Source of the DNA: a virus
Virus record (IMG/VR): IMGVR_UViG_3300013006_000024
Span: 41,163 to 105,162 of that record
DNA length: 64,000 nucleotides
Direction: 5' to 3' (one strand)
Position 1 is the stretch's first letter. Each line of letters begins with the position of its first letter. A program made the position numbers and the translations under genes. Under the pieces are notes generated by a model. That model did no database searches. It saw nothing but the letters and a program-made list of their open reading frames with translations, and was not told the DNA's origin. Positions 32,601-53,805 of the stretch are shown here, piece by piece.

Positions 32601-32836
32601 CTGAAAATTTTGTAATAACTTATTTAGGTAAAGACATGGCTAACGTATTTTATCTATTTAAAATATACTTTAAATATGTAAACGGAGCTATAACTAATAT
32701 TAATAATTTTATGTACAAGATTAGCCCGGATGTATATTCAAATAACTTTGCATCTGTTTTATCCGACCAATACACAGCATATAACATATTAGGCAATTCA
32801 TCTGTTATAAATGGGGTGTTTAACTTTAACGTATAA
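29696..32836 (+). CDS. large virion structural protein
   Basis: 1046 aa; late promoter; lies in the baseplate cluster; no recognised family. Confidence 0.65.
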
Positions 32837-34566
32837 TGCAAGAATATTATTTTAACTCTAATAATAAGACTTCTCTAGTTGTTATTGACAGAACAATTGA
32901 TACTAGTAGAGATTATATAATAACTTTTGATTATTGCTGTTACGGTATAGGTTTAAGCGGTTTTGAAGGGTTTAGCTTATGTTTTGTTGATAATCAGGTT
33001 GCTAATTTTTACGGTGGCGGTATTGGACCGGGGTTAGGTGTAACTGCTCTTACCGGAATATCAGCACTACCGCCTCTCTTTATACCGTACTTCAAAAAAT
33101 ACCCAGGTATTGATAAAACACATTTTGTTATAGGGTTTGATGTTAGTGGTAACTTTGGTGCGGATATTTATGCTAGAGGCGGCAATAGCACACCCCTACC
33201 TAATACAATTTCTTTAAGGAGCGGCACGCGTGATCAATTTAAATTGCTCTATACAACTGCAAACTTAGCTAGTTCAGCTTTTTCAGAGCCTATTAATTTA
33301 TATGAGCAATCTACAACTGGTGATAATTTTAAAACATTTAGAGTTCGTATTACTAATCTCGGAAAAACAGTTGTAATCGATCATAAAAATAAAACTGCGG
33401 AAAAATTTACTAATGTTCTTAGGTATGATTTACCAGTTAGTGTACCTTCTACTGTCTTTCCTGCAATAGGATTTGGAGCAGGTAATAATATATTATTTCC
33501 TACGAATTTACGAATTAAAAATATTAATGTTAATGGATTTTTTCTAACCCCTACCCCGACACCTACTATCACACCTACAAATACTGTTACACCTACTATG
33601 ACAGTAACACCGACGGTAACACCAACAATTACCCCGACAAATACACGAACGCCAACAGTAACCCCGACTAATACACGTACACCAACTATCACACCAACTA
33701 TTACACCTACAAATACAGTTACACCGACAATAACACCTACAGAAACTGTAACACCAACAATAACACCTACAGAAACTGTAACACCAACAATAACACCTAC
33801 AGAAACTGTAACACCAACAATAACACCTACAAATACAATTACACCGACAATAACACCTACAAATACTGTAACATCTACTCCCACAGTAACGCCAACACTT
33901 ACACCTACTATTACCCCTACAGCTTCAATAACACCAACAATTTCGCCAACTAATACACGTACACCGACTCTAACACCAACCAACACTATTACTCCTACAA
34001 TAACACCTACAAATACAGTTACAAGTACTGTTACACCTACTACAACTGTTAGCCCCTATATACGTAACTTTAATTCTAATCAATCTAATATCGTTATTCC
34101 ACGTGGACCGGCTAGAGCTAGCGTCTATCCTATAACATTCTCTGCTAATACAACAATTGCTCCTTCGCGAGTTACAGTATCACTTAACAACTTCAGTCAT
34201 AGTTCACCTTATGATATAGGCGTGCTACTTGTTTCGCCTAATAATATTAATAGTTTGGTTGTAGGTAGAATACCGGATAATGACGACCCGCAGCCTGCAG
34301 TAAATGCATATGTTACTCTTGACAGCTTAGCACCTGTGCCTTGGAATGCATATTCTTCAGGCACATATGCTCCTAATTACGATCCAGATAAGACGTTCCC
34401 GTTCGCTTCACCTGCACCTTCTGCGCCGTATAATTATGTACTAGATGTATACAATAATATTTCTGCAGTCGACGCCACTGGCACTTGGAATCTATATATT
34501 TACGATTTCGTACCAGGCGATTCCGGTACACTTACAAGCGCGACATTGAGTTTTATATATAGTTGA
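32836..34566 (+). CDS. modular protein: L-type lectin-like domain, Thr-Pro stalk, proprotein-convertase P-domain
   Basis: EGFSLCF...IGFD...IGFGAG (legume-lectin-like); PT tract; VTVSL..FSH...DIGVLLVSP...GTWNLYIYD...DSGTL (P-domain). Confidence 0.75.
33547..34056 (+). repeat. Thr-Pro coding repeat (170 aa) with a 30-bp tandem unit at 33721-33831
   Basis: acaccaacaataacacctacagaaactgta, about 3.7 copies. Confidence 0.95.
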
Positions 34567-34569
34567 TGA

Positions 34570-34598
34570 TTGATTTCTATGTATATATAATATAAAAT
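34570..34598 (+). promoter_or_regulatory. sigma70-type promoter of the glycosylation operon
   Basis: TTGATT-N17-TAAAAT, then 6 nt to GTG 34605. Confidence 0.5.
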
Positions 34599-34604
34599 AT
34601 ATAC

Positions 34605-35846
34605 GTGAAAATATTCATATCAATTGCATCATATAGAGATCCCGAACTACTGCCTACAATAAGAGATTGTATTGCTAATGCTAAAAAGCCTGAAAATTTA
34701 AGATTTTCTATAGCTTGGCAAAGAGATGAAAAAGAAACATTAGCTGAATTTACTAATGACAAGCGTTTTAAGATTATTGACATACCTTATCAAGAAAGTA
34801 AAGGTACTTGCTGGGCAAGAAGCAGAATTCAGGAAAATTATGATGGTGAGAAATACCATCTTCAGTTAGATAGCCATCATAGATTTATTAAGCACTGGGA
34901 TGCTGAATGCATTCAAATGATTAAAGATTTGCAAGCGAAAGGACATAAGAAACCTTTACTTACAGGCTATATATCAAGCTTTAATCCATCAAATGACCCT
35001 GCTGAGCGTATTAATACTCCGTGGAAAATGAACTTTGATAGGTTTATTCCCGAAGGTGCTGTATTCTTTTTACCTGCATCAATTGATGATTATAAAGACA
35101 GAACTTCACCGGTACCAAGTAGATTTGTTTCCGCGCATTTTATCTTTACTCTAGGTAAATGGATCGAAGAAGTACCTTATGATCCATTTTATTATTTTCA
35201 CGGTGAAGAAATTAACCTTGCTGTACGTTCTTATACATGGGGATATGATTTGTTTCACCCGCATAAAGTTATTGCATGGCACGAATATACTAGAAGAGGA
35301 AGAACTAAGCATTGGGACGATATTAAAGAGTGGGGTGATTTAAATAGTAAATCGCATTCTCGAAATCGCAAGCTTTTTGAAATGGATGGTGAGAAAAAAG
35401 ATATAGACTTCGGTAAATACGATTTCGGTAAAAAGAGATCTGTTGCTGAATACGAAAAATACGCTGGTATATGCTTTAAAAAGAGAGCTGTACAGCGTTA
35501 TACACTCGATAATAACTATCCACCTAATCCAGAGAATGCTAAAATGTCTGCAGATGAGCTCGATAAGTCATTTCTAAAGATATTTAAACATTGTATTGAT
35601 ATTAGATACGAGCAGGTACCTGAAAAAGATTATGATTTCTGGTGTGTAGCGTTTAAAGATAAGCAAGGTAAAGACGTATATCGGAAAGATGCTGATAAGA
35701 GTGAAATTACTGTAATGTTTAATGATCCCGACAAGTATTGTAAGGTATGGAGAACGTTTAACGTTGAAGAACCGCCTCATAGTTGGCTTGTATGGCCGCA
35801 TAGTGTCAGTAAGGGCTGGGCCGATCCAATTACTGGTAATTTGTGA
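34605..35846 (+). CDS. GT60-family polypeptide/hydroxyproline alpha-N-acetylglucosaminyltransferase-like enzyme
   Basis: IFISIASYRDPE, GTCWAR, LQLDSHHRF (DSH motif), VPYDP, FHGEE, LAVRSYTWGYD, WHEY: signature of the Skp1 Gnt1/Gnt2 (Pfam GlcNAc) family. Confidence 0.85.
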   Translation: MKIFISIASYRDPELLPTIRDCIANAKKPENLRFSIAWQRDEKETLAEFTNDKRFKIIDIPYQESKGTCWARSRIQENYDGEKYHLQLDSHHRFIKHWDAECIQMIKDLQAKGHKKPLLTGYISSFNPSNDPAERINTPWKMNFDRFIPEGAVFFLPASIDDYKDRTSPVPSRFVSAHFIFTLGKWIEEVPYDPFYYFHGEEINLAVRSYTWGYDLFHPHKVIAWHEYTRRGRTKHWDDIKEWGDLNSKSHSRNRKLFEMDGEKKDIDFGKYDFGKKRSVAEYEKYAGICFKKRAVQRYTLDNNYPPNPENAKMSADELDKSFLKIFKHCIDIRYEQVPEKDYDFWCVAFKDKQGKDVYRKDADKSEITVMFNDPDKYCKVWRTFNVEEPPHSWLVWPHSVSKGWADPITGNL

Positions 35847-36817
35847 TGAAAAGAATAGCGTTTCACGATAATAATCTATGTTTGCGTGGAACATCTGTAG
35901 CGTTATATCAGTATGCTAATTATAATGAAAAAATTCTTGGAAACAAAAGCTATATATTGAGCTGCCCTTCGGCAAATCTTGACGCCCTACCTAAATTTAA
36001 ATCGCGCTTTGATGTTAATCTAGCGCATTTTCATGATCATAGTTATTTTTTGAATGAAAATAAAGTAGATTATATTTATGTTATTAAATCAGGCGGCAAT
36101 GATGGCGTTAGTATGAGTCAACCACCTACATTAGTTCATTCTGTATTCGGTTCTAAAGACCACCATGGACATAGATATGCGTATGTATCTGATTGGTTGT
36201 GTAGAGCTATGGGGTATGATATAGAAAAACATTCTGTACCACATATTGCCGAGCCTTTACCTCAACCTACATATTCACTTCGCGAAAAATTAGGTATATC
36301 TTCAAATAAAAGAGTATTCGGCTGCTATGCTGGTACGACTGAATTTAATATTTCCTGGGTACAAGAATTAATATGCAATCTAGCCCCAAAAGCTCCAGAT
36401 CTCGTTTTTATGTTTATGAATATTGAAGATTTTAGATTTAGATGGCCTAATGCACCGGTTACTACTCATAATAATATTATTTTTCTACCAGGTACACACG
36501 ACATGCTTGAAAAATCAGCGTTTGTACATGCATGCGACGCTATGATTCATGCAAGAAGCGGTGGAGAGACTTTTGGTTGTGCTGTTTCTGAGTTTACTAT
36601 GGCAAATAAACCCGTACTAACATATGGTGAATCAGGCGAACGCAGTCATATAGAATTACTAGGAGATAGAGGTATTTTTTATAAGAATCCTGACGAATTA
36701 CATGACATGTTTATCAATCTACCTGAATACATTAAATATGATGATTATTATAAAGCTTATGATTGCTGTAGACCAGAAGTAATAATGGATAAATTTAATA
36801 AGGTATTTTTACAATGA
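35843..36817 (+). CDS. GT-B glycosyltransferase (GT4-like)
   Basis: RGTS, YAYVSDWL, LREKLGI, CDAMIHARSGGETFGCAVSEF..ANKPV (E-X7-E). Confidence 0.85.
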   Translation: MMKRIAFHDNNLCLRGTSVALYQYANYNEKILGNKSYILSCPSANLDALPKFKSRFDVNLAHFHDHSYFLNENKVDYIYVIKSGGNDGVSMSQPPTLVHSVFGSKDHHGHRYAYVSDWLCRAMGYDIEKHSVPHIAEPLPQPTYSLREKLGISSNKRVFGCYAGTTEFNISWVQELICNLAPKAPDLVFMFMNIEDFRFRWPNAPVTTHNNIIFLPGTHDMLEKSAFVHACDAMIHARSGGETFGCAVSEFTMANKPVLTYGESGERSHIELLGDRGIFYKNPDELHDMFINLPEYIKYDDYYKAYDCCRPEVIMDKFNKVFLQ

Positions 36818-37638
36818 AATATAATATATTAGTTAGTGCAATTTGCTTTATAAATAGAAAAAAACCAGGTGCAGAAATATACGCTACTTTCGCACGCAGA
36901 TTAATAAACGATGTTATGGTTAAATCACCATATGACGTGAGAATAATTACAAATGAACTTGAACACTTTAAAGAAGATATTCAAAAGTGGGGTGAACGTG
37001 TAATAATTAAGCACGATGATCTATCAAATAATCAAATTTATGTAGGTGCATTTAACCAAATGCTCAAATATAAGACAATGCAAGATGTATCTAAAAAGTA
37101 TGATTGGTTATTATATTTAGATTGTGATGCTGGGTTTACAGATACCTTAAACTCTGCACAAATAGATTCGTTTTTAACTTATGTTGAAGAGCAAGGGTAT
37201 GATATGCTCGGTACACGCACTAATTGTATTGTTAAAAACGAGCTATTAGACCATGAAAGTAAAATAAAAAAATGGGAGCAAGACCCTAGTCAGTATAATC
37301 CAGGTAATTTATTTTCATCTAAGTTTATTTTTTACAAAATGTCGTCAGATAAAGGTCCTTTTGAATGGTTTGATGCGGTGCTACCAAGCGAGCATGTATT
37401 ACTAATTAAAAATAATGAAAAACTTGCTATTATGGCTACCGAATTTGAAAAATTTAATCAAAAGTTTGAAACACAAGTAGATTTGCCATACATTATAACC
37501 TATGATATGGAGGCATTTGAAATAGGGGTTTCTGCTAAACTAGCGGGTTATAATGTAGGAGATTTCGGTAACGACGGTCTTTATCATATTATTAAGGTAG
37601 TTTGTAATCACAATAACTGGGAAAAAGTTAAATATTAA
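36814..37638 (+). CDS. GT-A glycosyltransferase
   Basis: FNQMLKY...YDWLLYLDCD (DxD); operon context; ATGA overlap. Confidence 0.65.
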   Translation: MKYNILVSAICFINRKKPGAEIYATFARRLINDVMVKSPYDVRIITNELEHFKEDIQKWGERVIIKHDDLSNNQIYVGAFNQMLKYKTMQDVSKKYDWLLYLDCDAGFTDTLNSAQIDSFLTYVEEQGYDMLGTRTNCIVKNELLDHESKIKKWEQDPSQYNPGNLFSSKFIFYKMSSDKGPFEWFDAVLPSEHVLLIKNNEKLAIMATEFEKFNQKFETQVDLPYIITYDMEAFEIGVSAKLAGYNVGDFGNDGLYHIIKVVCNHNNWEKVKY

Positions 37639-37641: not shown

Positions 37642-38553
37642 ATGGTATCTGTTAGACTCCGTGCCTCTTGGACGAGTGATGAGGAAATTTTAAAACGCGT
37701 TCTACTTCAGTTTAAAACTTCAGAAGATGACCTTTCAGGTATTAAATTTGTATTAGATGATAGCTATGATATTATAGTGTTTTTTGGTTATATAGTGGGA
37801 GAAATTAAACAAGGAGCTAAAGCTTATGTTTTCCCGCAAGAACCTAGCTGGTCAGGCGGTCATCCCAGATATTTTGATTATAATCCTAATTTAACTGTTT
37901 ACGGGTATGATAAAGCGCTATATTCGCGTCCAGAAGTAATCAAAGAAAGTATGAGTTATATGTTTTATGGTGGTAGAGGACCTACATCAGAAGGATATGA
38001 TCATTGGACGTACGACTTTATTACTAAGTACAATTACGAGAAAACAAAAAATATAAGTTGTATTATATCTACCCTAGGTTCTGATGGCGGTGATAAACCA
38101 TCAGGTTGTTTATACAAAAAAAGAGTAAAATTAGTTGACTGTCTTGTCAATAATGCTAATTTTATTGATATTTATGCGAGAAACGATGAAAGTAGACCGA
38201 ATCTTAAAGGAGACGCTAGATATAAATTCGATGCTTTAAAAGACTACAGATTTTCTATTTGCTGTGAAAACTCTAGAGAGAAAAACTATATTAGTGAAAA
38301 GTTTTTTGATTGTATATTAACAAACACAGTACCTATTTACTACGGGTGTAAGAATGTAGATGATTTATTACCAACAAATTCTTTTATATCTATAGATATA
38401 GATGACCTAGACGGTACATTAACTAAATTAAAATATATTAATGAAAACTGCGATGCTCTTTATAATGAAATGCTGCCTAGTGTAATAAAAGCTAAAGAAA
38501 TTTATTTTAATGAGTTTAATGTTTTAAAAATTATTAAAAAATTAGTATATTGA
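37642..38553 (+). CDS. GT10 alpha-1,3/4-fucosyltransferase-like enzyme
   Basis: YRFSICCENS..NYISEKFFDCILTNTVPIYYG is the GT10 alpha-1,3 motif; QEP. Confidence 0.85.
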   Translation: MVSVRLRASWTSDEEILKRVLLQFKTSEDDLSGIKFVLDDSYDIIVFFGYIVGEIKQGAKAYVFPQEPSWSGGHPRYFDYNPNLTVYGYDKALYSRPEVIKESMSYMFYGGRGPTSEGYDHWTYDFITKYNYEKTKNISCIISTLGSDGGDKPSGCLYKKRVKLVDCLVNNANFIDIYARNDESRPNLKGDARYKFDALKDYRFSICCENSREKNYISEKFFDCILTNTVPIYYGCKNVDDLLPTNSFISIDIDDLDGTLTKLKYINENCDALYNEMLPSVIKAKEIYFNEFNVLKIIKKLVY

Positions 38554-38583: not shown

Positions 38584-39534
38584 ATGACTAAGGTAATTAT
38601 ACATCAGCCTAAAAACTTTGAAAGTAGATATTACCGCTATTATAATTACCTTTTTGACGGGCTTAGTAAGAAAATTAGTGAAAATTTCGATTGTTTAGAG
38701 GCTAGATATTTTAAGCACGCAAATGAAATTCGATATCCGGTAAAATTAATGTATGATACACCTACTAAGGAACGAGAAACAACACTTTTGCTTGAATGCG
38801 AAATGCTTATTGAAAATTATGATACACATGAAGTAGTAGTATTATCAGTCTCCGACGATTTGACACATGCAATACTTCACAATTACCCAAAAGTGCAGAA
38901 AATATTAATATCACAATATCAAAAGAATAAAATTAGCTCTAATTTATATAGCGGACAAGATTTTAGTAAGTTTTCCCCGTGGGTTTATTTCCCGCAAAAC
39001 ATATATGATTACGATGCATTCTACAATAAAAGAAAAGATATTTCTAATTTTATTGACAAATTTTACTTTAGAGGCACTTCATTAGAAATACGCACAATAT
39101 TAAACGGGTTTAATTCACAGTATTTTGAAGGTGGCTTACCAATTGGAGGTTTTGAAGCATATGCAAATGATATTATTAACTATAAAGCTGCATTTTCCAT
39201 TGCGGGTCGAGGTGAATTTTGTTATAGAGATATAGAAAATATGGCCATGGGTATTCCTATTATTAGATTTGAATATTCACATGAAATGTCACCGCCGCTT
39301 ATACCAAATTTTCATTACATCTCCACACTACGTCCTTTTATTAGTTCTGAACATCAGCTGTCGCCAGAGCATTCACATTTAATAGAGAAAAGATTCCTAG
39401 AAGTAAAAGATGACAAAGACTTTTTAAATTTTATTTCAAAAAATGCTAGGGATTATTATGAAAACTACATTAAATTAGATAAATGTGTTGAACATACATA
39501 TAATTTAACAGGAATAGAACAATGGAAGAAATAG
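38584..39534 (+). CDS. GT-B glycosyltransferase (GT47/GT90-like)
   Basis: KFYFRG, SIAGRGEFCYRDIENMAMG, LIPNFHYI, ISKNARDYY. Confidence 0.65.
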   Translation: MTKVIIHQPKNFESRYYRYYNYLFDGLSKKISENFDCLEARYFKHANEIRYPVKLMYDTPTKERETTLLLECEMLIENYDTHEVVVLSVSDDLTHAILHNYPKVQKILISQYQKNKISSNLYSGQDFSKFSPWVYFPQNIYDYDAFYNKRKDISNFIDKFYFRGTSLEIRTILNGFNSQYFEGGLPIGGFEAYANDIINYKAAFSIAGRGEFCYRDIENMAMGIPIIRFEYSHEMSPPLIPNFHYISTLRPFISSEHQLSPEHSHLIEKRFLEVKDDKDFLNFISKNARDYYENYIKLDKCVEHTYNLTGIEQWKK

Positions 39535-40154
39535 ATAAAAATATAACTAAAAAGGTTAATCTCGAAGCTAATGATGGGCTATCTAGTTATCTCGGATTCG
39601 CTTGTCAGCAACATCATGGTGTATATGAAGTATTTTATAATTTTTTAAATGAAGTAAAACCATCTAACATACTTGAAATTGGAACTGCTCTAGGTGGGTT
39701 TACACAATACTTACACTACGTTAACAAACAAATTAATAATAATTGCAAAATATTAAGTTATGATATTCATGGTCATGACTGGTATAATGATATGATAAAA
39801 GATGGTATTGACGTAAGAGTTGAAAATATTTTTGCCGATGACTTTTCTTCTGTCAAACCGGATGTTATAGATTTTATTAAATCGCCAGGCACAACTATTG
39901 TTTTTTGCGATGGCGGTAGTAAAAAAGATGAATTCAATTTGCTTTCATTTTATCTAAAACCGAGAGATTATATCTTAGCTCATGACTACGGCTTTGATAG
40001 GAGCATTTTTGATCAGCATTGTAACGGTAAGATTTGGAATTGGTGTGAAATTACTGAAAGTGACATTTCACCATCTGTTGTAAAAAATAATTTACAAGAT
40101 TATAGTAATAATATTTTTAATAATGTAGCGTGGACATGTAAGGTTAAAATATGA
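39522..40154 (+). CDS. class I SAM-dependent methyltransferase (Methyltransf_24/CmcI-like)
   Basis: ILEIGTALGG, LSYDI, FCDGG, ILAHD. Confidence 0.8.
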   Translation: MEEIDKNITKKVNLEANDGLSSYLGFACQQHHGVYEVFYNFLNEVKPSNILEIGTALGGFTQYLHYVNKQINNNCKILSYDIHGHDWYNDMIKDGIDVRVENIFADDFSSVKPDVIDFIKSPGTTIVFCDGGSKKDEFNLLSFYLKPRDYILAHDYGFDRSIFDQHCNGKIWNWCEITESDISPSVVKNNLQDYSNNIFNNVAWTCKVKI

Positions 40155-44362: not shown

Positions 44363-47300
44363 ATGGAAATCGCTGAAATAACCTCATCTAACTTTATATG
44401 TCTTACAGCAAGATATCCTTACGATGAAGAGTTTAAGTTTAAAGAAACTGTTATGTTCACCGAGCAGGATCTTAATATACCTCTTAATGACTCTTTAAAA
44501 GATATTAATGATCAAAAAATAAATAATTTTTCAAACTTAATTCTTACTAAGAATGATCTTTTAACAAGTAGTTTCTATGTCGATCCTTTGGAGTATTTAA
44601 ATGATTACGGGTTTTCTACATTTTTTGCTGCTAATGCGCCGGGCACAATAACACCATCTACTAAATTTTGGGTTGTAGAAGAACCCGGAGTCGGAGTTAA
44701 TCGTGCAGAACTAAATGTAAATGGTGAATATTCAAACATTAATAATCAATATTTCTTCGACGTTTCATTTTTATCAGAAAATTTTTGTAAGATATCACAT
44801 GAAAATAGTAATGTAAAAAGATATTTAACAGTTGATTATACAGGTAATCTTTCTTTTAGTAAAGACGCTGAGTTAGATAGTCTAGGAGAATATAGTCCTC
44901 AAATTTTTATGTATATCTACGATAGAGATTTTAAATTTATTGTATTATTTAAGAATATTAATGATATAGCTAATTATGTTACGTTCAACGCAAACAATAA
45001 TAATCTGACTTTAGCTGAACCTCTCACCGGTACTTCTATACCCTATTCTATAAGTTCAATTTTTAGAATTAATCCTAGAAGTAAATCGCCAAACAATACA
45101 AAATTTATAGACCCATGGATGAGCTACAAAAAAGATCTATTTACCAACTCACAAAATATATATCCTTTAAGAAGTTTTGAAAATATAGAATCTAATTTAT
45201 TGTTAAATAATGAATACTTTAATTTATCTAGTGCGTCTATCGATTTTAATATCTTATCTTTAAAAAATAGTAGTAATTCTGATAATTATCAAGGACGTGG
45301 TAATCCTTTTTTTGATGAAAAAAATGTTCAATTTAGAGATTATCAATCATTATTTACAGGATCTAATCAACAATATGGCGATGATAACATCTCACTAGGT
45401 TATGAAACATATACAACTAATATTTTACTAAAAAAAGATAGTGTAACGTATTTTCATATTCCTCAGAACTTTTATCCTTTTGAAAGATTAAATGTAAATG
45501 ATTCTTATTTAGCTGAATCAGGGGCTATAGCTGGAGATCACCCTTTAAAGTCAGATAAGATATTTAAAAAGAAAGGCGATTACAGCCGCACAACCCATTT
45601 TGGCGATACAATAGAAGAAACTACTGGTGAGTTTCTATGTGCATGGTTATCCGGTAGTACAGATACAAACGTAAGACCTATATGGGTAGATAGATATTAT
45701 AACCCTAAAAATATATCATTCTTAAGAGCATTAACCTCATCTGATTTTAAAGCGGTTAGGTATATATCTGTTTTCGATTGTTTAGTAAGCGAAGCAAATC
45801 AACTACTAGGTGACGTTGATGTGTTTGATAAGCCTTCAGATTTAATTTTTGAAAAAGGAGCTTATTACGCGTATCATCATTATGGGCCAAAAGATGTTGA
45901 AAACTTTATTAATATTTTTAGTAAGAATTTAGCTCAAAAAGATTTAATTAGTTATAAATTTTACAATGGGTCAGATGTACAAGAGGTCTTTACTGGTGAA
46001 TATAGCTTTAATGGTGTAAAATATGCATCTACAGGTTCTCTCTCTTCTATTAACGATACAAATCAGTTTACTTTAATTTTTGATGGTTATAGTACTGATT
46101 GGAATATACCATTAGGTAATCAAATTATTGGAAACTATAGTTCCGATGGGTTTGGAATTTTTAATCAACAATCAGTTACACCTTTCGTGTTTTATAATAC
46201 TCTTAGCTCGTTAAATATAACTAATACTGATTTAAATGTTTTAAGTAGGCTCGAGACAGATTCAAAAATAAGAGGTGTAATTAGAACACAGAGTCTTGAT
46301 GATTTTTATATACTTTTTGAAGACAACACTGTGCGCAGATACAATTTGTCATTTTCAGAGATTAGAAGAACATTAACTAATTTAAAAATAGGACAATCTA
46401 GAGACTTTACTAATACGGAAGATTACGCATATTTCTTCTTCAATAATAACCCGGGCGGTACACCTAATATGAAATTAGCTAGAGCAGATCTTAACTCCAA
46501 TGTAATTACTGATTTTACTGCTAATGCCGATTTTACTAATGTACCTATCGATACACTTATAACTTTTTGTAATACAGTTAATTTATATAATGGAGAGTTT
46601 TATTACACTGACGGTACAAAGTCAGAAATTATAGATAATAATATTTTTTATTTAGTGGGCAATAAAATTAAACTATGGAGCAATATTAATACTGTTTCAA
46701 CGCTCATTACAGCGTTTTCTGCTTCTACGAGCATAGAAGATTTTACTATAGACTACGATAATAATATTTGGATATTATTTGATAGAAATAAATATGCAAA
46801 ATATAATAGATATAGAGAATTTCTGCTGTCAGGGTATTTTTCTGAAACTAATTTTGCTAATTATAAGATCGATTCTTTAGCAGAATTTAAACAAGGTCAG
46901 TATATTAAAGAAATGATTGTAATGCGACAATCAACTTCAAGCAGCAATACTATTAATTTTACGAAAATAGGTATTGATGGGGCAACTGCATTAAGTACAC
47001 AATCTACCTATTTAACCGCCGGCTTTAACAATCTCACAAATGGCGAATTTTTAAGAGTTAATAACCAAGCTAATTATTCACCCGGTAATTTTAGCGCTAA
47101 AGTAAGACTTTATAATATGTATAATATTAATAGCAGTACTACTGTAGAAGTAAAATTTAATCTTTCTGCGGTTGACCCTGGGTATCATAACTTTGCTATA
47201 AGATTTGACGCATATGAAGGATTCATGCATTTCTTTGTCGACGGGCAGCTGCAAGATGTAGCAGAGTTTGATCCTAGAAAATACATATTTAGTAATATAA

Positions 47301-47710
47301 TTAACAGACCATTTTTAGTAGGAACATCAACTTATTTAAATTCTATACCGTTATTTAATTTTCTTCAAAATACAAATTATCTAGCAACTAACTTAAAAAT
47401 TAAGAATTTTTATCTATACGATAAGCCTCTATATGACTACGATATTATTATGCATACAAGAAAAAATATGTTTATTCGCGATATCAATCTTAACGTTGCA
47501 TGCGGAAGACGTAATTACGTAGAAGAGGTTGAAAGATATTTCAAGCTAAGATCGCCCGGTTCCAAATCTACATTATTTAATTTAATTATAAGAAACAGCG
47601 GTATTCGAGATGAAGATTTAAAGTACGCGTTAGAGCAGCGTATATTAAGTATATTAAGAAATACTGCGCCGGTATATACGCAAATTAAAAATATTAAATG
47701 GGCAAATTAA
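44363..47710 (+). CDS. large virion structural protein with split LamG/concanavalin-like domain
   Basis: FNGVKY...QFTL..GNQIIGN and GYHNFAIRFD...FFVDGQ...FLVG...IKNFYLYDKPL. Confidence 0.65.
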   Translation: MEIAEITSSNFICLTARYPYDEEFKFKETVMFTEQDLNIPLNDSLKDINDQKINNFSNLILTKNDLLTSSFYVDPLEYLNDYGFSTFFAANAPGTITPSTKFWVVEEPGVGVNRAELNVNGEYSNINNQYFFDVSFLSENFCKISHENSNVKRYLTVDYTGNLSFSKDAELDSLGEYSPQIFMYIYDRDFKFIVLFKNINDIANYVTFNANNNNLTLAEPLTGTSIPYSISSIFRINPRSKSPNNTKFIDPWMSYKKDLFTNSQNIYPLRSFENIESNLLLNNEYFNLSSASIDFNILSLKNSSNSDNYQGRGNPFFDEKNVQFRDYQSLFTGSNQQYGDDNISLGYETYTTNILLKKDSVTYFHIPQNFYPFERLNVNDSYLAESGAIAGDHPLKSDKIFKKKGDYSRTTHFGDTIEETTGEFLCAWLSGSTDTNVRPIWVDRYYNPKNISFLRALTSSDFKAVRYISVFDCLVSEANQLLGDVDVFDKPSDLIFEKGAYYAYHHYGPKDVENFINIFSKNLAQKDLISYKFYNGSDVQEVFTGEYSFNGVKYASTGSLSSINDTNQFTLIFDGYSTDWNIPLGNQIIGNYSSDGFGIFNQQSVTPFVFYNTLSSLNITNTDLNVLSRLETDSKIRGVIRTQSLDDFYILFEDNTVRRYNLSFSEIRRTLTNLKIGQSRDFTNTEDYAYFFFNNNPGGTPNMKLARADLNSNVITDFTANADFTNVPIDTLITFCNTVNLYNGEFYYTDGTKSEIIDNNIFYLVGNKIKLWSNINTVSTLITAFSASTSIEDFTIDYDNNIWILFDRNKYAKYNRYREFLLSGYFSETNFANYKIDSLAEFKQGQYIKEMIVMRQSTSSSNTINFTKIGIDGATALSTQSTYLTAGFNNLTNGEFLRVNNQANYSPGNFSAKVRLYNMYNINSSTTVEVKFNLSAVDPGYHNFAIRFDAYEGFMHFFVDGQLQDVAEFDPRKYIFSNIINRPFLVGTSTYLNSIPLFNFLQNTNYLATNLKIKNFYLYDKPLYDYDIIMHTRKNMFIRDINLNVACGRRNYVEEVERYFKLRSPGSKSTLFNLIIRNSGIRDEDLKYALEQRILSILRNTAPVYTQIKNIKWAN

Positions 47711-49302
47711 TGAATACTCTATCAAACAATTTACAGCTTGTAAGATATCTTACTTATAATTTAGAGCTTCCTTATAGTTTTAATAACATAGCGTTTCAAG
47801 CTAATGACACCGTTTCAAGTGATTTAATTAATTTAAAATTAAGTCATTTATATGATAATTTTATATATCTCTATCAAGCATCATTAATATCTTCTAACGT
47901 AATACCAGTTTCAAGCACGGGGGTAGCAGGAATAACTGCAAATTCTACCGATTTTAAATGGCATAAAAATGCCTATACCAGTACATTTATACCGTTATCC
48001 TCTAATAATAGATTTATAGGATTAGATAAGACAGATTTGTTGTTCTTAATAAAAAATGAAGATATAGATCAATATTCCATTTTAATGAGCTGTATATCGT
48101 CAATAGCAGTTTTTAATTTTGATGAAAGCGCATCGTACTTTACGCGTAACTTTGCTCTTAATGAAGTCGATCCCGGGCTAGGTACTTACTATCAGTGTAT
48201 AACAGCATTTGAATCTATAGATCAGAATTTATTTGTATTAGACAGTTCTCTTAACAAAATTGTAAAGTACGATGCATCTGGTTTATATACAAATGACATA
48301 ATTACAAGAAATTCACTTAGATATTTAAATTCAATAGGTAATTTTGGACCTTCAACCTCTAAATTAGAATTCAATTCACCTACAGGTCTAACTTCATATG
48401 ATAAAAATCTTTATGTATTAGATTCAGGAAATAAATGTGTTAAAATGTACGATTCAAATTTAAATTGGCTTGGAACTTATAGGCTATCTATTGATTTAGC
48501 AGACCTTAGACCGGTAGATATAGCAGCAGATAATCTTGGTAATATTTTTGTACTTACTGATAAAAATTTTATAAAATATGATAATACTTTTCAATCCAAA
48601 CAGATATTTGATACAGCATCAACATATCCAGGCGAAATATTTAAAAAGATAGTATTTTCGAAATACAATAAAGATATTTTTTATTTAATTTCTAACTTAA
48701 ATGTATATAAAAAGTTTGCTAGCACTCCATCTGATTTAATAGGTAAATATTTACTGTATTTATTTAACTATAATTTACCTAATGATATAATTACAGGATT
48801 TAGTTCTGTAGCTACAGATACTGGTGATAGAAATGTTATTTTTACTTTAAACGGTAATACAGGTAAGCTAGGCAACTTTTTTGACAACTTAAATTTATAT
48901 GATATCTTGAGAATTAGACATTTTGATATATATAATCTTGACCAAATTAAACTTAATAGTGAAGAGTACTTTCAAAATTGGGTTTTTAATAAAGCAATAT
49001 CAAAACTCTTAATTAATCATATGCGTTTTAGAGATCAAATTATTGGTAAATTTATAGGATCGCAAGACGGTCAAGGTAATATTGTTTTTGAAGGGACAAG
49101 ATATCTTTTGCCTGACGAATTAGATTCTATTATCTTTCAGCAAGATCTAGCTTTTTATATAGGCGCAAACGAGCTTACAACTACAAGTGTATTTAATAGA
49201 ATTATAAAAAAGATTTACGATGTTCAAGTCGCATTAAGAAGTATCTTAGAAGCTGAGGTTACCAATAATCCCGGTACATCAAATACAGTATATATAAGCT
49301 AA
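47710..49302 (+). CDS. NHL-repeat beta-propeller virion protein (start probably ATG 47710)
   Basis: FNSPTGL...[29 protein letters not shown]; TAATG overlap with the upstream gene. Confidence 0.75.
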
Positions 49303-50123
49303 TGAAATACATTTTTAATATAAGGCAAGGGCAAGGCGTGAGTAAAATAGTACCTATATTACCCACACCTACTGGCTCGGTGACACCTACCCCTACTGTT
49401 ACACCTACAATAACACCTTCAGGATTTCCTACACCTACACCCACTATTACATCAACTGTAACTAGAACACCCACTATTACACCTACTATCACACGCACAC
49501 CTACTATTACACCTACTATCACACGCACACCTACTATTACACCTACAGTAACAAAAACACCTACTCCTACACCTACCGTCAGCCCATTAATATTATTCCG
49601 TCAGCCGTTTAGGTATTTATTATTCGGATTTGAGTATGACGGAAATGATTTTGATCCTAATGTCTCTGTATATAATATTCCTGGTTATGCTAATAATTAT
49701 GTTACTGTTGGAGGCTGTCCGATTGGCTCGCCAAGTACGGTGGTAGGTTCACTTTCATATGGCGGCGACTTTAAATCGTCTTCCGGTATAGAGCAAGTGC
49801 TTGTTGATCTACAGACGTTGAGCGCTATTAATCCGCTTGCAACCTCTATTAATATTGGTATATCTGGAAACTGGTTTATGAACCCAGCTAACCCAATTCA
49901 ACCGTTCTGGACATTTAAACTATCTATGAGCGCAGTTACTGGCGGTACATTTACGTTAGATGATATTAATAATACGTTTATCTTAAACGGTGGTATTATA
50001 AATGAGATTAAAGAATTTGTACGTGATCCGTTTACTATAGCTAAGGGCAACACATGCCCGTCTTACGCGACTATTTCTGAGCTAGTTTACTATACTTACA
50101 ATGGCGACGTTCAGGTAACTTAG
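49302..50123 (+). CDS. Thr-Pro stalk protein with C-terminal beta-domain
   Basis: About 20-aa leader, 75-aa PT tract (49362-49586), then a globular domain; TAATG coupling. Confidence 0.75.
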
Positions 50124-50315: not shown

Positions 50316-50409
50316 TGGTACCTCCGGCGGGATTCGAACCCGCATTTTGCCCAAATCTAGAGCGACTACTTTATAAGAGTAGGGTCTTAACCAGTTAGAC
50401 GACGGAGGC
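50316..50409 (-). tRNA. tRNA with UAU anticodon (Ile by anticodon) and long variable arm, CCA encoded
   Basis: GCCTCCG/CGGAGGT-A-CCA; CTACT-CTTATAA-AGTAG; 22-nt variable region; GCGGG-TTCGAAT-CCCGC. Confidence 0.88.
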
Positions 50410-50863: not shown

Positions 50864-50896
50864 AGTATACGGGAATTTTTAAATAGTGCAAGTACT

Positions 50897-50969
50897 TCGC
50901 CTAGGTCAGACTCGAACTGACACTTGAACGATTTTAAGTCGTTTTTCTCTGCCATTGGAATACTAGGCG
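50897..50969 (-). tRNA. tRNA-Leu(UAA) with short variable loop
   Basis: CGCCTAG/CTAGGCG with A73; AACGA-CTTAAAA-TCGTT; 5-nt variable loop CAAGT; GTCAG-TTCGAGT-CTGAC. Confidence 0.88.
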
Positions 50970-50977
50970 AATAGATA

Positions 50978-51127
50978 TTATGGGTATTTGTAGATTTTCT
51001 TACCCCTTTTAACTGTATAGTTCCGTATTTCTTTGTTTTCTTTTGATGGCCAATTAATAACATCAAAATTCTCTTTAAATTGTTTACTAAAACAGTTTCT
51101 CGGTTTATCGCCTTTACCTGCACTCAT
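50978..51127 (-). CDS. 49-aa small phage protein with GKG-x-KPR N-terminus (not in ORF track)
   Basis: MSAGKGDKPRNCFSKQFKENFDVINW...; TGGATT-N17-TAAACT-N6-ATG upstream; stops 8 nt before tRNA-Leu. Confidence 0.75.
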   Translation of the reverse strand: MSAGKGDKPRNCFSKQFKENFDVINWPSKENKEIRNYTVKRGKKIYKYP

Positions 51128-51186
51128 CTTATAAGTTTAACCTTATTTATTTAAAAAATCCATAAATAATTTATAAGGCTTTTAAA

Positions 51187-53805
51187 ATGAATAGGATTAC
51201 GTATTTATCTGGCGGAACTACAGTTATTTCATTTCAAGGCTATAATTTTGAAAATACAAGATTTGTTTATCTAAGTACTACTAGTGATAACGCTCAAGCA
51301 TACAATAATGTAGTTGTTGACTTTTTTCCAGGTTCATCTCTATACCCTGCTTTTACAGGGTTTAAGTATTTTGACTACACATTAACAAATAATATCTTAA
51401 CGTTAAATGTTTCTAATTTATCTGGTGGGGGGTATTATGATGTTATTATTTTTAGTAATGCAGGGTATGCTAAACTATCAGATAGTAATTTGTTAATTAA
51501 CGCACAGATAGGACCATATGTTATACCTACACCGACACCTACTGCAACTATAACACCTACAATTACGCCAACTATTACAATAACACCTACAATTACGCCA
51601 ACTATTACAATAACACCTACAATTACGCCAACTATTACAATAACACCTACAACTACACCTACTGAAACGGTTACACCTACAGTAACACCAACCGTTACTA
51701 GAACGCCTACGCTTACACCGACTATTACACCTACAAATACTATTACACCTACTGTAACAATAACACCGACAATAACACCGACAATAACACCGACAATAAC
51801 ACCCACAATAACACCTACACAGACTATTACACCGACGGCAACTATAACACCTACAATTACACAAACAGAGACTGTCACACCTACTATAACACCAACTATA
51901 ACACCTACTATAACGATTACAAGATCATCTACACCGACTATTACACCTACAAACACTATTACACCTACAAACACTATTACACCTACTGTAACAAGGACAC
52001 CCACAATTACACCCACAATTACACCCACAATAACACCTACTATAACGATTACAAGATCGCTTACACCTACAACAACACCTACACCTACTGGTACACCAAC
52101 TACAACAATTACACCTACAGAGACAGTAACGCCTACCATTACACCTACTATCACCCCAACTATTACACCGACAAGTACAACAACCCAGACTACAACACCG
52201 ACTACTACTGTTACGCCTACAACCACTTTAACTGTTACGCCTACTAGAACGCCAAAACCTACAATTACACCAACAAGAACACCAACAAGAACCCCTACTA
52301 ATACAGCTACACCAACAGTTACGCCAACAACAACGCCAACTATTACACCTACTATTACTAAGACACCTACAAATACTCCTACTCAATCTATTACACCTAC
52401 TCAATCTATAACGCCTACTAAAACAGTTACACCAACCATGACGCCTACTAAAACAGTTACACCAACCATGACGCCTACTAAAACAGTTACACCAACCATG
52501 ACGCCTACTAAAACAGTTACACCAACCATAACGCCTACAATAACACCAACGGTATTTGTCTTTAATGTATTTGATGAAGCTAAAAATTACGTTACACCAA
52601 CAGTAACACCTACTGTAACACAGACAGCAACAATTACACCTACAACAACCCATACAGCTACACCGACAATTACACCCACAGAGACTGTCACACCTACTAT
52701 AACACCAACTATTACGCCGACAGAAACAGTAACACCAACTATTACGCCAACAGAAACAATTACACCTACTATTACACCTACAGAAACAATTACACCTACT
52801 ATAACACCGACTCAATCTATTACGCCTACGCAGACCACAACACCTACAATCACACCTACTGTTACTGTAACAGTTTATCTATCACCTACTCCTACTATAA
52901 CTATTACGCCAACCGAGACGGTGACACCTACAGTAACGCCAACTGAAACTGTAACTCCGACTGTAACACCTACAGCAACGCCAACAGAAACTGTAACTCC
53001 GACTGTAACACCAACTATTACACCAACAGAAACTGTTACACCGACTGTAACACCAACAATTACAATTACGCCTACTGAAACTGTTACACCGACTGTAACG
53101 CCTGAAGCGACATCCACAGTTACACCTACAGCTACACCGACAACAACAATTACTCCAACTATAACACCGACTATAACTGTTACACCGACTGTCACACCGA
53201 CAATAACACCAACAAAATTTATATTCAATGTATTTGATGAAGCTAAAAATTACGTTACACCAACAGTAACACCTACTGTAACACAGACGGTCACACCAAC
53301 TAATTCATTAACACCAACAGTTACACCTACAGTTACGCCGACAGAAACAGTTACACCAACAATAACCATATCACCTTCTAATACAGTTACACCTACTAGA
53401 ACACCTACACCGACAAGAACACCGACAATTACACCCACTAATACCAGTGTACCCACATTTACTTCGCAATATACATACACATGCCCAGTACCGCCTAATT
53501 TAGCTTACCAACCATCCGCTAGTGCTCCCACTTACGTAGGAGTACAGTTCCAAGGATTATGCTCACCAGCACCTGTAACAAAACTAGGTATAACTGCTGA
53601 TAGATTTTCTTCCGGGTTTGGCGCACTTTACTGTTATTTTAATGGTGTAGCCTCGTGTGTAATAAAGAAGGACACATATCTATCTAATAGTAATATATTT
53701 TATGTAATATTTAACGGTGATGCTACACAGACTAAGTATTATGGTAGATTAACACCTAGAACATATTATTACTTTGTAACTGGTGGTAAATATTGGCCAG
53801 TTTAA
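51187..53805 (+). CDS. mucin-like protein: Ig/IPT-like N-domain, about 644-aa Thr-Pro stalk, Cys-containing C-domain
   Basis: ISFQGYNF...[13 protein letters not shown]; PT tract at aa 114-757; C-terminal about 115 aa with 4 Cys. Confidence 0.85.
51526..53457 (+). repeat. Thr-Pro coding repeat (644 aa) with 30-bp arrays and a 62-bp duplication
   Basis: 30-bp units at 51550-51652 (x3.4) and 52411-52530 (x4); 52564-52625 is identical to 53227-53288. Confidence 0.95.

What the first reader, a model, noticed from the sequence alone, without database searches (positions are those of the whole stretch)
32836..53805. Candidate phage mucin system: GT60 initiator, glycan-building operon and four Thr-Pro stalk proteins
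Seen: a GT60-type gene starts 38 bp after a PT-repeat gene. It heads an operon of GT4-like, GT-A, GT10-like, GT47/90-like, methyltransferase and TylF-HtrL-GT genes, which ends 19 bp before another PT-repeat gene. Four proteins carry tracts of 170, 202, 75 and 644 aa of [12 protein letters not shown], about half Thr. Known: GT60 enzymes start O-glycosylation by adding alpha-GlcNAc to Hyp or Thr. Dictyostelium Gnt2 (modB) is required for glycosylating PTVT repeats of PsA, and Trypanosoma cruzi OGNT modifies Thr-rich mucins. Virion glycosylation is reported in some mycobacteriophages, but on capsid and tail-tube proteins. Inference: this phage builds bottle-brush glycoprotein filaments with deoxysugar and O-methyl caps, for stalk rigidity, protease or grazer protection, or adhesion. 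I know of no description of such a system in phages.
Basis: partly seen in the sequence, partly recalled or inferred. Interest (0 to 1): 0.9.

Follow-up and report, generated by a model that had tools for sequence, protein, structure and literature searches.

The report
Phage sugar-coating kit for Thr-Pro stalks
An uncultured T4-like phage carries, inside its tail genes, an enzyme built like those that start mucin sugar coats, flanked by four proteins with long threonine-proline stalks, so it probably sugar-coats its own appendages, though no sugar has been measured on this phage.

Summary
The window has exactly four Thr-Pro tract genes, and a GT60/PF11397 gene (E 7e-70) starts 38 bp after the first. 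It heads a seven-gene sugar-transferase and methyltransferase block that ends 19 bp before the second.

- TPTx tracts occur in 29 of 39 GT60-bearing phage records (8 of 8 near-complete ones), against 2 of 27 GT60-free controls.
- GT60 occurs in 18 of 43 arbitrarily sampled tract-bearing contigs, against 0 of 20 random ones.

The GT60 model matches mucin-type ppGalNAc-transferases best (Z about 20) and keeps their DxH motif. The conserved core is GT60 plus an HtrL_YibB-GT2 fusion (90 of 111 loci); the other enzymes vary. Direct adjacency of a tract gene to GT60 holds in this phage's clade and, separately, in nine Gemmatimonadota loci.

The cultured phage XacN1 has the same core pair and the same tracts, and its virions stain as glycoproteins (PMC5852040).

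Not shown: the sugar, the acceptor, that the stalk proteins are in the virion, the deoxysugar and methyl caps, and the function.

This scan has noted the same pairing before on other DNA (80 notes, at least 66 genomes). I found no paper describing it.

The parts
1..254 (+). 3' end of an RmlD-like SDR gene (G000:C1:40580-41416, cut by the window start); a possible deoxysugar step
   Evidence: PF04321 RmlD_sub_bind, 78.3 bits, over the cut-off
29696..32836 (+). 1046-aa structural-module protein. Its stop overlaps the PT1 start. It is conserved upstream of PT1 in relatives.
   Evidence: ORF list. tblastn finds it in 19 related loci. It lies downstream of the baseplate wedge gene 24367-26223 (phrog_219).
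32836..34566 (+). PT1: N-terminal domain, a Thr-Pro tract of about 170-190 aa, and a C-terminal P-domain-like head. Candidate substrate.
   Evidence: PF01483, 25 bits, at residues 540-573. The N-domain is conserved in 16 related loci.
34605..35846 (+). GT60 polypeptide HexNAc-transferase-like initiating enzyme. It is soluble: a GT-A catalytic domain plus a C-terminal FN3-like beta-sandwich.
   Evidence: PF11397 E 7e-70. Invariant D89-S90-H91. AF2 pLDDT 87. ppGalNAc-T top matches, Z 17.7-20.9. C-terminal domain best Z 7.7, FN3.
35843..36817 (+). Possible GT-B (GT4-like) glycosyltransferase. Weak call; not found next to GT60 in other loci.
   Evidence: PF00534 E 1.6e-4, under the cut-off. 0 of 111 loci. 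No PDB sequence match.
36814..37638 (+). 274-aa protein of unknown family.
   Evidence: No family in Pfam, NCBIfam or PHROGs, and no PDB sequence match. Weak relatives in 8 of 111 loci.
37642..38553 (+). GT10-like (fucosyl/6-deoxyhexosyl-type) transferase; accessory
   Evidence: PF00852 E 1.2e-13. Present in 10 of 111 loci.
38584..39534 (+). Likely GT-B-type transferase (GT90 / Glyco_trans_1_2 / GT47-like); accessory
   Evidence: Protein-atlas neighbours carry PF13524, PF05686 or PF03016; a lead only. Present in 21 of 111 loci.
39522..40154 (+). CmcI / rhamnosyl O-methyltransferase-like methyltransferase; accessory
   Evidence: PF04989 E 1.9e-7. NF045824 E 7e-9, far under its cut-off. Present in 18 of 111 loci.
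40151..42469 (+). Three-domain enzyme: TylF-type sugar O-methyltransferase + HtrL_YibB + GT2-like GT-A. The last two domains are the conserved partner of GT60.
   Evidence: PF05711 E 1.4e-24 and PF09612 E 3.6e-17. C-terminal domain hits GT2 in 8 of 23 relatives and has an invariant E-D-D. HtrL is present in 90 and the GT-A domain in 88 of 111 GT60 loci, always on the same strand.
42489..44354 (+). PT2: N-terminal domain, a Thr-Pro tract of about 200-220 aa, and a variable C-terminal head. Candidate substrate.
   Evidence: The N-domain is conserved in 17 loci; the C-domain is found in none.
44363..47710 (+). 1115-aa protein of the same co-directional block. No known family; conserved in relatives.
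   Evidence: Present in 18 loci.
47698..49302 (+). 534-aa NHL-repeat (beta-propeller-type) protein of the same block
   Evidence: PF01436 E 9e-5. Present in 7 loci.
49302..50123 (+). PT3: short N-terminus, a Thr-Pro tract of about 75-95 aa, and a C-terminal domain. Candidate substrate.
51187..53805 (+). PT4: N-terminal domain, a Thr-Pro tract of about 645-675 aa (311 Thr), and a C-terminal domain. Candidate substrate. It lies directly before the 1535-aa tail fibre gene.
   Evidence: The tail fibre 53843-58450 hits phrog_5342 at E 2.8e-85.
61017..61985 (-). dTDP-glucose 4,6-dehydratase (RmlB); possible supply of a 6-deoxyhexose donor
   Evidence: TIGR01181, 392.5 bits against a cut-off of 365.1

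Best explanation
This is a phage-encoded, cytoplasmic, mucin-type protein O-glycosylation system.

Proposed steps:
1. During late infection the soluble GT60 enzyme (34605-35846) transfers a first HexNAc to the side chains of the alternate-position threonines in the T-P-T-x tracts. The sugar is most likely alpha-GlcNAc from the host's UDP-GlcNAc. The targets are the phage's own tail-module proteins PT1 to PT4, which together hold about 520 candidate sites.
2. The conserved partner, the HtrL_YibB-GT2 part of 40151-42469, adds the next one or two sugars.
3. The lineage-variable enzymes finish the chain with 6-deoxyhexose and O-methyl groups. These are the GT10-like, GT90-like and GT4-like transferases and the CmcI-type and TylF-type methyltransferases, fed by RmlB and an RmlD-like reductase.

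The product would be stiff, hydrophilic, protease-resistant 'bottle-brush' stalks that hold variable C-terminal binding heads away from a conserved N-terminal anchor.

Shown here: family, fold and motif of the initiator; the gene layout; genome-wide co-occurrence of GT60 with TPTx tracts; the conserved enzyme pair.

Inferred: the acceptor, the sugars, the order of steps, that PT1 to PT4 are virion parts, and the benefit to the phage.
For: 1. Family and fold. PF11397 at 236.7 bits. The DxH motif D89-S90-H91 is invariant in 35 homologues; DxH in place of DxD is the mark of GT27 and GT60 (PMC7185993). The AF2 model (pLDDT 87) has 29 mucin-type ppGalNAc-T entries as its best matches (Z 17.7-20.9, 258-278 residues aligned, rmsd 3.5-3.9), ahead of generic GT-A folds. 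There is no signal or membrane segment: the first strand starts at residue 3.

2. Co-occurrence.
- TPTxTPTxTPT is present in 26 of 36 GT60+ viral records of 60 kb or more, and in 8 of 8 that are at least 90% complete. The reversed-pattern control gave no hit.
- Of 43 arbitrarily sampled tract-bearing contigs of 40 kb or more, 18 carry GT60.
- Of 20 random contigs of 40 kb or more, none has GT60 and one has tracts.
- Among tail-sheath relatives, 3 of 3 GT60+ have tracts and 1 of 7 GT60- do. A complete 229-kb relative has neither.
- Fisher p values are 4e-8, 4e-4 and 3e-4, uncorrected for kinship.
- GT60+ tract+ phages fall in at least four sheath groups.

3. An independent bacterial context. 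In nine Gemmatimonadota loci (64-70% GC, one on a 1.17-Mb contig) the ORF ending just upstream of GT60 has an 80-100 aa T/S/P-rich tail after a hydrophobic segment. In the one I tested (L417) it starts with a PqqD domain, and an HtrL-GT2 gene follows GT60.

4. Conserved partner. HtrL is present in 90 of 111 loci and the GT-A domain in 88 of 111, often abutting GT60.

5. A published experiment. XacN1 has GT60 (ORF334) and HtrL-GT2 (ORF330). At least 11 of its proteins carry the same TPTx grammar. Its purified virions show at least two PAS-positive glycoprotein bands (PMC5852040).

6. Position. The block lies between baseplate and tail-fibre genes. N-terminal domains are conserved while C-terminal heads vary.
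Against: - No glycan has been measured on this phage or on any Thr-Pro tract of a phage.
- The PAS-positive XacN1 bands were not identified, so they need not be the tract proteins.
- The association tests are not corrected for phylogeny or habitat, and the samples are small.
- Tract-bearing phages without GT60 are common: 7 of 11 near-complete ones. Tracts therefore do not need this enzyme.
- Immediate adjacency is clade-specific. Within 10 kb the rate is near my rough chance estimate.
- PT1 to PT4 have no homologues among cultured phages and no virion annotation.
- The GT60 donor and acceptor cannot be read from sequence. Characterised GT60 enzymes act on Thr or on hydroxyproline (PMC8724618, PMC6939170).
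- The contig is only about 49% of the genome.
Confidence: 0.6

Rival explanations
1. The enzyme block decorates something other than the Thr-Pro tracts: host envelope glycans (LPS, capsule, S-layer) during infection, or other virion proteins such as capsid or tail tube, as in mycobacteriophages. On this view the tracts are plain unglycosylated flexible linkers, and they co-occur with GT60 because both are traits of certain large environmental phages.
For: - Thr-Pro tracts exist without GT60 in 25 of 43 sampled contigs and in 7 of 11 near-complete ones.
- Adjacency beyond the close clade is near my rough chance estimate.
- HtrL/YibB was named from a gene in the E. coli LPS-core locus (my own knowledge).
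- The XacN1 glycoprotein bands are unidentified.
- The association tests are not kinship-corrected.
Against: - All 8 near-complete GT60+ phages have tracts, against 1 of 10 near-complete controls.
- A complete relative that lacks GT60 also lacks tracts.
- The pairing recurs in at least four sheath lineages.
- It also recurs in Gemmatimonadota chromosomes, with a T/S/P-tailed ORF directly upstream of GT60.
- The fold is closest to polypeptide-modifying transferases, not to LPS or capsule enzymes.
Confidence: 0.2
2. The system is hydroxyproline-linked, like Skp1 or plant HRGPs. A prolyl 4-hydroxylase first converts tract prolines to Hyp, and GT60 then adds GlcNAc to Hyp rather than to Thr.
For: - The best-studied cytoplasmic GT60, Gnt1, is specific for Hyp (PMC6939170).
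- Tracts are 19-20% Pro at fixed spacing.
- A 2OG-Fe(II) oxygenase of the P4H-type family occurs in 3-4 of 13 GT60+ genomes.
- Earlier scan notes describe oxygenase-GT60 cassettes in other phages.
Against: - No PF13640 gene in the held half of this genome.
- None in the two complete relatives of this clade (G007, G015) or in XacN1. It is absent from 9 of 13 GT60+ genomes.
- Thr, not Pro, is the strictly periodic and most abundant residue.
Confidence: 0.07
3. The glycosyltransferases hypermodify phage DNA with glycans (on 5-hmC or 5-hmU), as in T-even and TET-encoding phages.
For: - The phage is T4-like in its replication genes.
- The C-terminal GT-A domain of the fusion gives weak hits to the TET-associated glycosyltransferase family in 11 of 23 relatives (best E 6.6e-5).
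Against: - No TET/JBP gene over the cut-off in this contig or in 12 near-complete GT60+ genomes and XacN1.
- The same enzyme pair sits in bacterial chromosomes next to a T/S/P-tailed protein gene.
- The GT60 fold matches polypeptide transferases.
- The block lies in the tail module, not with the nucleotide-metabolism genes.
- A dCMP-hydroxymethylase route was not tested.
Confidence: 0.03

Closest known systems
Protist CAZy GT60 polypeptide alpha-GlcNAc-transferases that start mucin-type O-glycans (Dictyostelium, Trypanosoma cruzi; PMC8724618)
   Same: Same Pfam family (PF11397), DxH motif and GT-A fold nearest GT27. No ricin-type lectin domain. Acceptors are dense Thr/Pro-rich tracts.
   Different: The protist enzymes are Golgi type II membrane proteins acting on secreted mucins. 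This one is soluble and must act in the bacterial cytoplasm on phage proteins. It carries a conserved C-terminal FN3-like domain. Its activity is untested.
Skp1 glycosylation pathway of Dictyostelium and Toxoplasma: PhyA, Gnt1 (GT60), then PgtA (two-domain GT74-GT2) (PMC6939170)
   Same: Cytoplasmic. A soluble GT60 initiator is followed by a two-domain glycosyltransferase that includes a GT2-type domain. The phage and bacterial core pair (GT60 + HtrL_YibB-GT2) has the same layout.
   Different: The Skp1 pathway modifies a single Hyp on one protein and needs a prolyl hydroxylase. Here there are hundreds of Thr sites and no hydroxylase in most genomes. Whether HtrL_YibB is related to GT74 was not tested.
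Animal mucin-type O-glycosylation by GT27 ppGalNAc-transferases
   Same: Best structural match (Z about 20), same D-S-H metal motif, and Thr/Pro-rich tandem-repeat substrates.
   Different: A different CAZy family. GT27 enzymes have a ricin beta-trefoil lectin domain and use UDP-GalNAc in the Golgi.
Xanthomonas jumbo phage XacN1 glycosyltransferases ORF334 and ORF328 and its PAS-positive virion glycoproteins (PMC5852040)
   Same: ORF334 is 46% identical to this GT60. ORF330 is the HtrL-GT2 partner. The same TPTx tracts occur in at least 11 proteins. The authors proposed that the phage's glycosyltransferases glycosylate virion proteins.
   Different: The paper did not identify the family, the partner, the glycoproteins or the tracts. 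XacN1 adds a carbamoyltransferase and lacks this window's methyltransferases and its GT10-like and GT90-like genes in the 21-kb stretch around its GT60.
Mycobacteriophage virion glycosylation (Freeman et al. 2023, as cited in PMC12619734)
   Same: Phage-encoded glycosyltransferases decorate the phage's own structural proteins inside the host.
   Different: As summarised in PMC12619734, those glycans sit at the C-termini of the capsid and tail-tube subunits. No repeat stalks are mentioned there, and I did not read the original paper.

Membership tests
CAZy GT60 / Pfam PF11397 | Match to the family profile above the curated threshold | tested here: met
   236.7 bits against a cut-off of 21, E 7e-70, two stretches covering profile positions 2-44 and 93-350
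CAZy GT60 / Pfam PF11397 | DxH in place of the GT-A DxD metal-binding motif (PMC7185993) | tested here: met
   D89-S90-H91 is invariant in 35 homologues of 63-94% identity. In the model it follows strand 84-88.
CAZy GT60 / Pfam PF11397 | GT-A fold closest to GT27 ppGalNAc-transferases | tested here: met
   The top 29 entries are all ppGalNAc-Ts, Z 17.7-20.9. The next is SpsA at Z 16.9.
CAZy GT60 / Pfam PF11397 | No C-terminal ricin-type lectin domain (PMC8724618) | tested here: met
   The C-terminal 90 aa fold as a seven-strand FN3/Ig-like sandwich (pLDDT 92). Best Z is 7.7, to FN3 domains. No beta-trefoil entry was listed among the best rows.
CAZy GT60 / Pfam PF11397 | Retaining transfer of GlcNAc from UDP-GlcNAc to a polypeptide Thr or Hyp | not testable with these tools
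   Needs an enzyme assay
Mucin-type O-glycosylation system | Substrates with dense Ser/Thr/Pro tandem-repeat domains encoded together with the initiating enzyme | tested here: met
   Four tract proteins lie in the same gene block. Genome-level co-occurrence is 29 of 39 against 2 of 27.
Mucin-type O-glycosylation system | O-glycans actually attached to the tract threonines | not testable with these tools
   Only indirect: PAS-positive virion bands of unknown identity in XacN1 (PMC5852040)
Skp1-type Hyp glycosylation pathway | A prolyl 4-hydroxylase acting before GT60 | tested here: not met
   No PF13640 in the held 105 kb. Over the cut-off in only 3 of 13 GT60+ genomes, and none in this clade or XacN1. 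Only half of this genome is held.
Skp1-type Hyp glycosylation pathway | A two-domain GT74-GT2 second enzyme (PgtA) | tested here: inconclusive
   A two-domain HtrL_YibB-GT2 partner is conserved. Any relation of HtrL_YibB to GT74 could not be tested, because no GT74 sequence or model was on hand.
Phage virion glycosylation (mycobacteriophage type) | Phage-encoded glycosyltransferases placed among the structural genes | tested here: met
   The block lies between the baseplate wedge (24367-26223) and the tail fibre (53843-58450).
Phage virion glycosylation (mycobacteriophage type) | Glycans on the C-termini of the capsid and tail-tube subunits | not tested
   The capsid and tube genes of this phage were not examined. 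No sequence feature predicts this.

The most novel reading that the evidence does not exclude
The GT60 + HtrL_YibB-GT2 pair is a widespread prokaryotic and viral pathway for dense O-glycosylation of Thr-Pro tracts in the cytoplasm. On this reading many large environmental phages, and some bacteria, build true mucin-like bottle-brush appendages. The pair would also be the prokaryotic counterpart, and possibly the evolutionary source, of the eukaryotic Gnt1-PgtA cytoplasmic pathway and of GT60/GT27 mucin-type initiation.
Probability: 0.25. Interest if true: 0.85.

Novelty: new variant of a known kind. Interest (0 to 1): 0.7.

Why it matters
If true, mucin-type glycoproteins are not confined to eukaryotes. 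A large, abundant group of uncultured freshwater and soil phages would cover their receptor-binding appendages with sugars made by their own enzymes in the host cytoplasm. The GT60 family has more than 7,000 relatives in metagenomes.

Consequences:
- It would change how tail-fibre length, stiffness, protease and grazer resistance, and particle stickiness are read from phage genomes.
- It would explain a very common low-complexity feature of phage proteins.
- It would assign a role to prokaryotic GT60 and HtrL/YibB proteins. The papers I read describe GT60 functions only in protists, and Pfam lists HtrL_YibB as of unknown function.
- It would bear on the origin of eukaryotic mucin-type and Skp1 glycosylation.

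It is directly testable, because the cultured phage XacN1 carries the whole core and already shows glycoprotein bands.

Tried and rejected
- Sequence search of GT60 against PDB chains, alone and as a profile, gave nothing. Only the fold search was informative.
- Megablast of 24 kb against cultured phages gave no match.
- The N-terminal domains of PT1 and PT2 have no relatives in cultured phages. Virion membership could therefore not be supported by homology.
- The GT60 C-terminal domain as a lectin analogous to the ricin domain of ppGalNAc-Ts: the fold is a generic FN3/Ig sandwich with a best Z of 7.7, which says nothing about sugar binding.
- HtrL_YibB as GT74: the atlas returned only HtrL_YibB clusters. 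The relevant papers (PMC2873859, PMC2704902, PMC4813455) are not held. This stays untested.
- The 274-aa and GT4-like proteins gave no PDB sequence match.
- Promoter and terminator scans of the block are at chance level. 'Operon' rests on gene spacing only.
- DNA-glycosylation reading: no TET/JBP gene.
- Hydroxyproline reading: no general P4H.
- Adjacency as general evidence was rejected. It holds among phages only in the close clade.
- Literature searches for GT60 or PF11397 with phage, for mucin-like phage proteins and for virion O-glycosylation found no description of this pairing.
- RmlA and RmlC are not in the held half of the genome.

Full report
**What the window is.** The 64 kb are part of a 105-kb IMG/VR virus record, judged 49% complete. 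It is a T4-like myovirus at about 33% G+C. It has a large terminase, tail sheath, tape measure and baseplate wedge, and a 1535-aa tail fibre. Upstream of the window lies a T4-type replication module with a family B polymerase, UvsX-like RecA, DnaB-type helicase and SbcCD-like proteins. No cultured phage is close at the DNA level.

**Checking the observation.** The gene layout is exactly as described. PT1 is 32836-34566. After 38 bp comes GT60 (34605-35846). Six further co-directional genes, overlapping or separated by 3-30 bp, run to 42469. After 19 bp comes PT2 (42489-44354). Then follow an 1115-aa protein, a 534-aa NHL-repeat protein, PT3 (49302-50123), a small tRNA cluster on the other strand, and PT4 (51187-53805), which lies directly before the tail fibre gene.

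A composition scan finds these four and no other Thr/Pro-tract ORFs in the window. The tracts are 34-46% Thr and 19-20% Pro, with Thr at every second position: 476 T-x-T pairs against 24 T-T, and 519 Thr in all. The DNA carries 12- to 60-bp tandem units. The Gly/Val-rich ORFs on the opposite strand are reverse-complement readings of these tracts, so I take them to be artefacts.

**Checking the enzyme labels.** GT60 is solid: PF11397 E 7e-70 and phrog_24687 E 4e-166. GT10-like, a CmcI/rhamnosyl-O-methyltransferase-like protein, and TylF + HtrL_YibB are also supported. The third domain of the 772-aa protein is GT2-like, with 8 of 23 relatives hitting PF00535 and an invariant E-D-D. 'GT4-like' is under threshold. 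'GT47/90-like' rests on an atlas lead. 'GT-A' for the 274-aa protein has no support.

**The initiating enzyme.** In 35 homologues, D89-S90-H91 is invariant. DxH in place of DxD marks GT27 and GT60 (PMC7185993). The AlphaFold model (pLDDT 87) finds mucin-type ppGalNAc-transferases as its best 29 entries: Foldseek E down to 4.6e-10, and Z 17.7-20.9 over 258-278 residues. Generic GT-A enzymes follow from Z 16.9. The protein starts directly with the first Rossmann strand, so it is soluble and would act in the cytoplasm, where phage particles are built. Its last 90 residues, conserved from phages to bacteria, fold as an FN3/Ig-like sandwich with no specific match. This is not the ricin lectin domain of animal enzymes, and its role is open.

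- At least 228 IMG/VR contigs encode a close relative, and metagenomes hold more than 7,000.
- Among whole records of 60 kb or more that carry GT60, the motif TPTxTPTxTPT occurs in 26 of 36, and in all 8 that are at least 90% complete. The reversed motif gave no hit.
- Conversely, I sampled contigs only by a four-unit TPTx motif. Of those 40 kb or longer, 18 of 43 carry GT60 over the Pfam cut-off.
- As a control I sampled contigs by an arbitrary 14-mer. Of the 20 that are 40 kb or longer, none has GT60 and one has tracts.
- Among ten tail-sheath relatives of this phage, the three with GT60 all have tracts. Of the seven without GT60, one has tracts. A complete 229-kb relative has neither.
- Fisher tests give 4e-8, 4e-4 and 3e-4. 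They ignore kinship, so they overstate the case.
- However, the GT60+ tract+ phages fall in at least four tail-sheath groups: this clade, a clade with roughly 820-1,200-aa sheaths, XacN1, and several complete genomes without a detectable sheath relative.

Tracts without GT60 are common (25 of 43). The relation therefore reads 'GT60 implies tracts', not the reverse, which is what an enzyme-substrate relation predicts.

A tract gene ends within about 125 nt of GT60 only in the closest relatives (about 75% identity or more). Overall 32 of 80 loci have one within 10 kb. About four tract genes per 200-kb genome would give a rate of that order by chance; this is my own rough estimate, not a computed control.

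An independent case of adjacency does exist in bacteria. In nine Gemmatimonadota loci (64-70% G+C, one on a 1.17-Mb contig) the ORF ending just upstream of GT60 has an 80-100 aa T/S/P-rich tail after a hydrophobic segment. In L417, the one I tested, it begins with a PqqD domain (E 1.5e-7) and an HtrL-GT2 gene follows GT60.

**The conserved core.** I ran tblastn with every protein of the block against 111 GT60 loci from phages and genomes of 29-70% G+C. The HtrL_YibB domain is present in 90 and the GT2-like domain in 88. They are always on the GT60 strand and often abut it on either side. TylF (16), the CmcI-type methyltransferase (18), GT90-like (21), GT10-like (10) and GT4-like (0) are accessory. 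So the system is a two-enzyme core with a variable finishing set.

The layout recalls the cytoplasmic Skp1 pathway of protists, in which Gnt1 (GT60) is followed by the two-domain PgtA (GT74-GT2) (PMC6939170). I could not test whether HtrL_YibB is related to GT74.

**Sugar supply.** The phage encodes an RmlB equivalog (TIGR01181, 392.5 bits over a cut-off of 365.1). It also has an RmlD-like reductase at the window's left edge. RmlA and RmlC are not in the held half. With the two methyltransferases and the GT10-like enzyme, a methylated 6-deoxyhexose cap is plausible but unproven.

**Experimental anchor.** Only four cultured phages carry a homologue: XacN1, Xoo-sp13, CM1 and RAS14, at 42-46% identity.

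In XacN1 the GT60 gene is ORF334. An HtrL-GT2 gene, unrecognised in the annotation, is ORF330. They lie near the baseplate wedge genes and the giant ORF325.

At least 11 XacN1 proteins carry the same T-P-T-x grammar at 50% G+C. These include five tandem paralogues (ORF232, 233, 234, 235 and 237) with ORF236 among them, ORF369, 370 and 372 beside the sheath gene, and ORF384.

The XacN1 paper reports at least two periodate-Schiff-positive bands in purified virions. It suggests that the phage's glycosyltransferases make them (PMC5852040). The bands were not identified.

**Rivals.**
- Another target, with the tracts as plain linkers, remains possible (0.2).
- A hydroxyproline linkage is unlikely. 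A P4H-type oxygenase is absent here and from 9 of 13 GT60+ genomes, including this clade and XacN1.
- DNA glycosylation is unlikely. There is no TET/JBP gene in this contig or in 12 near-complete GT60+ genomes and XacN1, and the same pair occurs in bacterial chromosomes.

**Novelty.**
- Phage virion glycosylation is known for mycobacteriophages, on capsid and tail tube (cited in PMC12619734).
- GT60 mucin-type initiation is known in protists (PMC8724618).
- GT60 is listed as present in prokaryotes and protists only (PMC7185993); the papers I read give no function for the prokaryotic members.
- The XacN1 authors guessed at phage-made virion glycoproteins.
- I found no paper linking GT60, the HtrL-GT2 partner and Thr-Pro tracts in phages.
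- Within this scan the same pairing has been noted many times on other DNA (80 notes in at least 66 genomes). Those notes agree with this reading.

**Verdict.** The best explanation is a phage-encoded cytoplasmic mucin-type O-glycosylation of Thr-Pro stalks, with confidence 0.6. I class it as a new variant of a known kind.

Noticed in passing
window 50139-50409, 50896-50970, 62498-62570 (all - strand): Five tRNA genes: Tyr-GTA, Arg-TCT, Ile-TAT, Leu-TAA, Thr-TGT. All but Tyr read A-ending codons favoured by this AT-rich phage. tRNA-Thr(UGU) reads ACA, which is 60% of the Thr codons in the tracts. The four tracts hold 313 ACA codons, against 380 in 12,267 codons of 19 other genes.
   Followed up: partly
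ARAGORN, which also looks for tmRNA genes, called none anywhere in the window.
   Followed up: partly
L413-L417, L419, L422, L424, L436 (Gemmatimonadota genome contigs): A conserved bacterial cassette: an ORF with a hydrophobic segment and an 80-100 aa T/S/P-rich tail, then GT60, then HtrL_YibB-GT2. In L417 the first ORF starts with a PqqD domain and a Bac_transf sugar transferase lies nearby. It looks like a bacterial glycosylated-tail protein system of unknown role.
   Followed up: partly
XacN1 AP018399.1: ORF330 (216551-218191); ORF232-237 (124048-133104): ORF330, annotated as hypothetical, is an HtrL_YibB-GT2 fusion, 46% and 38% identical to the window's domains. ORF232, 233, 234, 235 and 237 are tandem paralogues of 400-530 aa, each with a Thr-Pro tract near residues 205-300. 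ORF236 (746 aa) lies among them and has tracts as well.
   Followed up: partly
IMGVR_UViG_3300020578_000006 (G104, reached through L266): A complete 229-kb relative (tail sheath 54% identical) has neither GT60 nor TPTx tracts. It is a natural comparison genome for joint gain or loss.
   Followed up: no
window 53843-58450 (+): A 1535-aa tail fibre protein. It matches several PHROG tail-fibre families in up to six separate stretches, so it has internal repeats. An earlier scan note reads these as phycobiliprotein-like domains; I did not examine that.
   Followed up: no
G000:C1:33875-34645 (about 6.5 kb before the window): A stand-alone glutamine amidotransferase domain (PF13522 E 2.3e-7). The next ORF (226 aa) has no NCBIfam match. 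Any link to amino-sugar supply is not established.
   Followed up: partly
window 33381-33986, 43169-43972, 51435-52226, 52228-52815 (- strand): Long Gly/Val-rich ORFs lie opposite the Thr-Pro tracts. They are reverse-complement readings of the ACN/CCN repeats, and I take them to be non-coding.
   Followed up: yes
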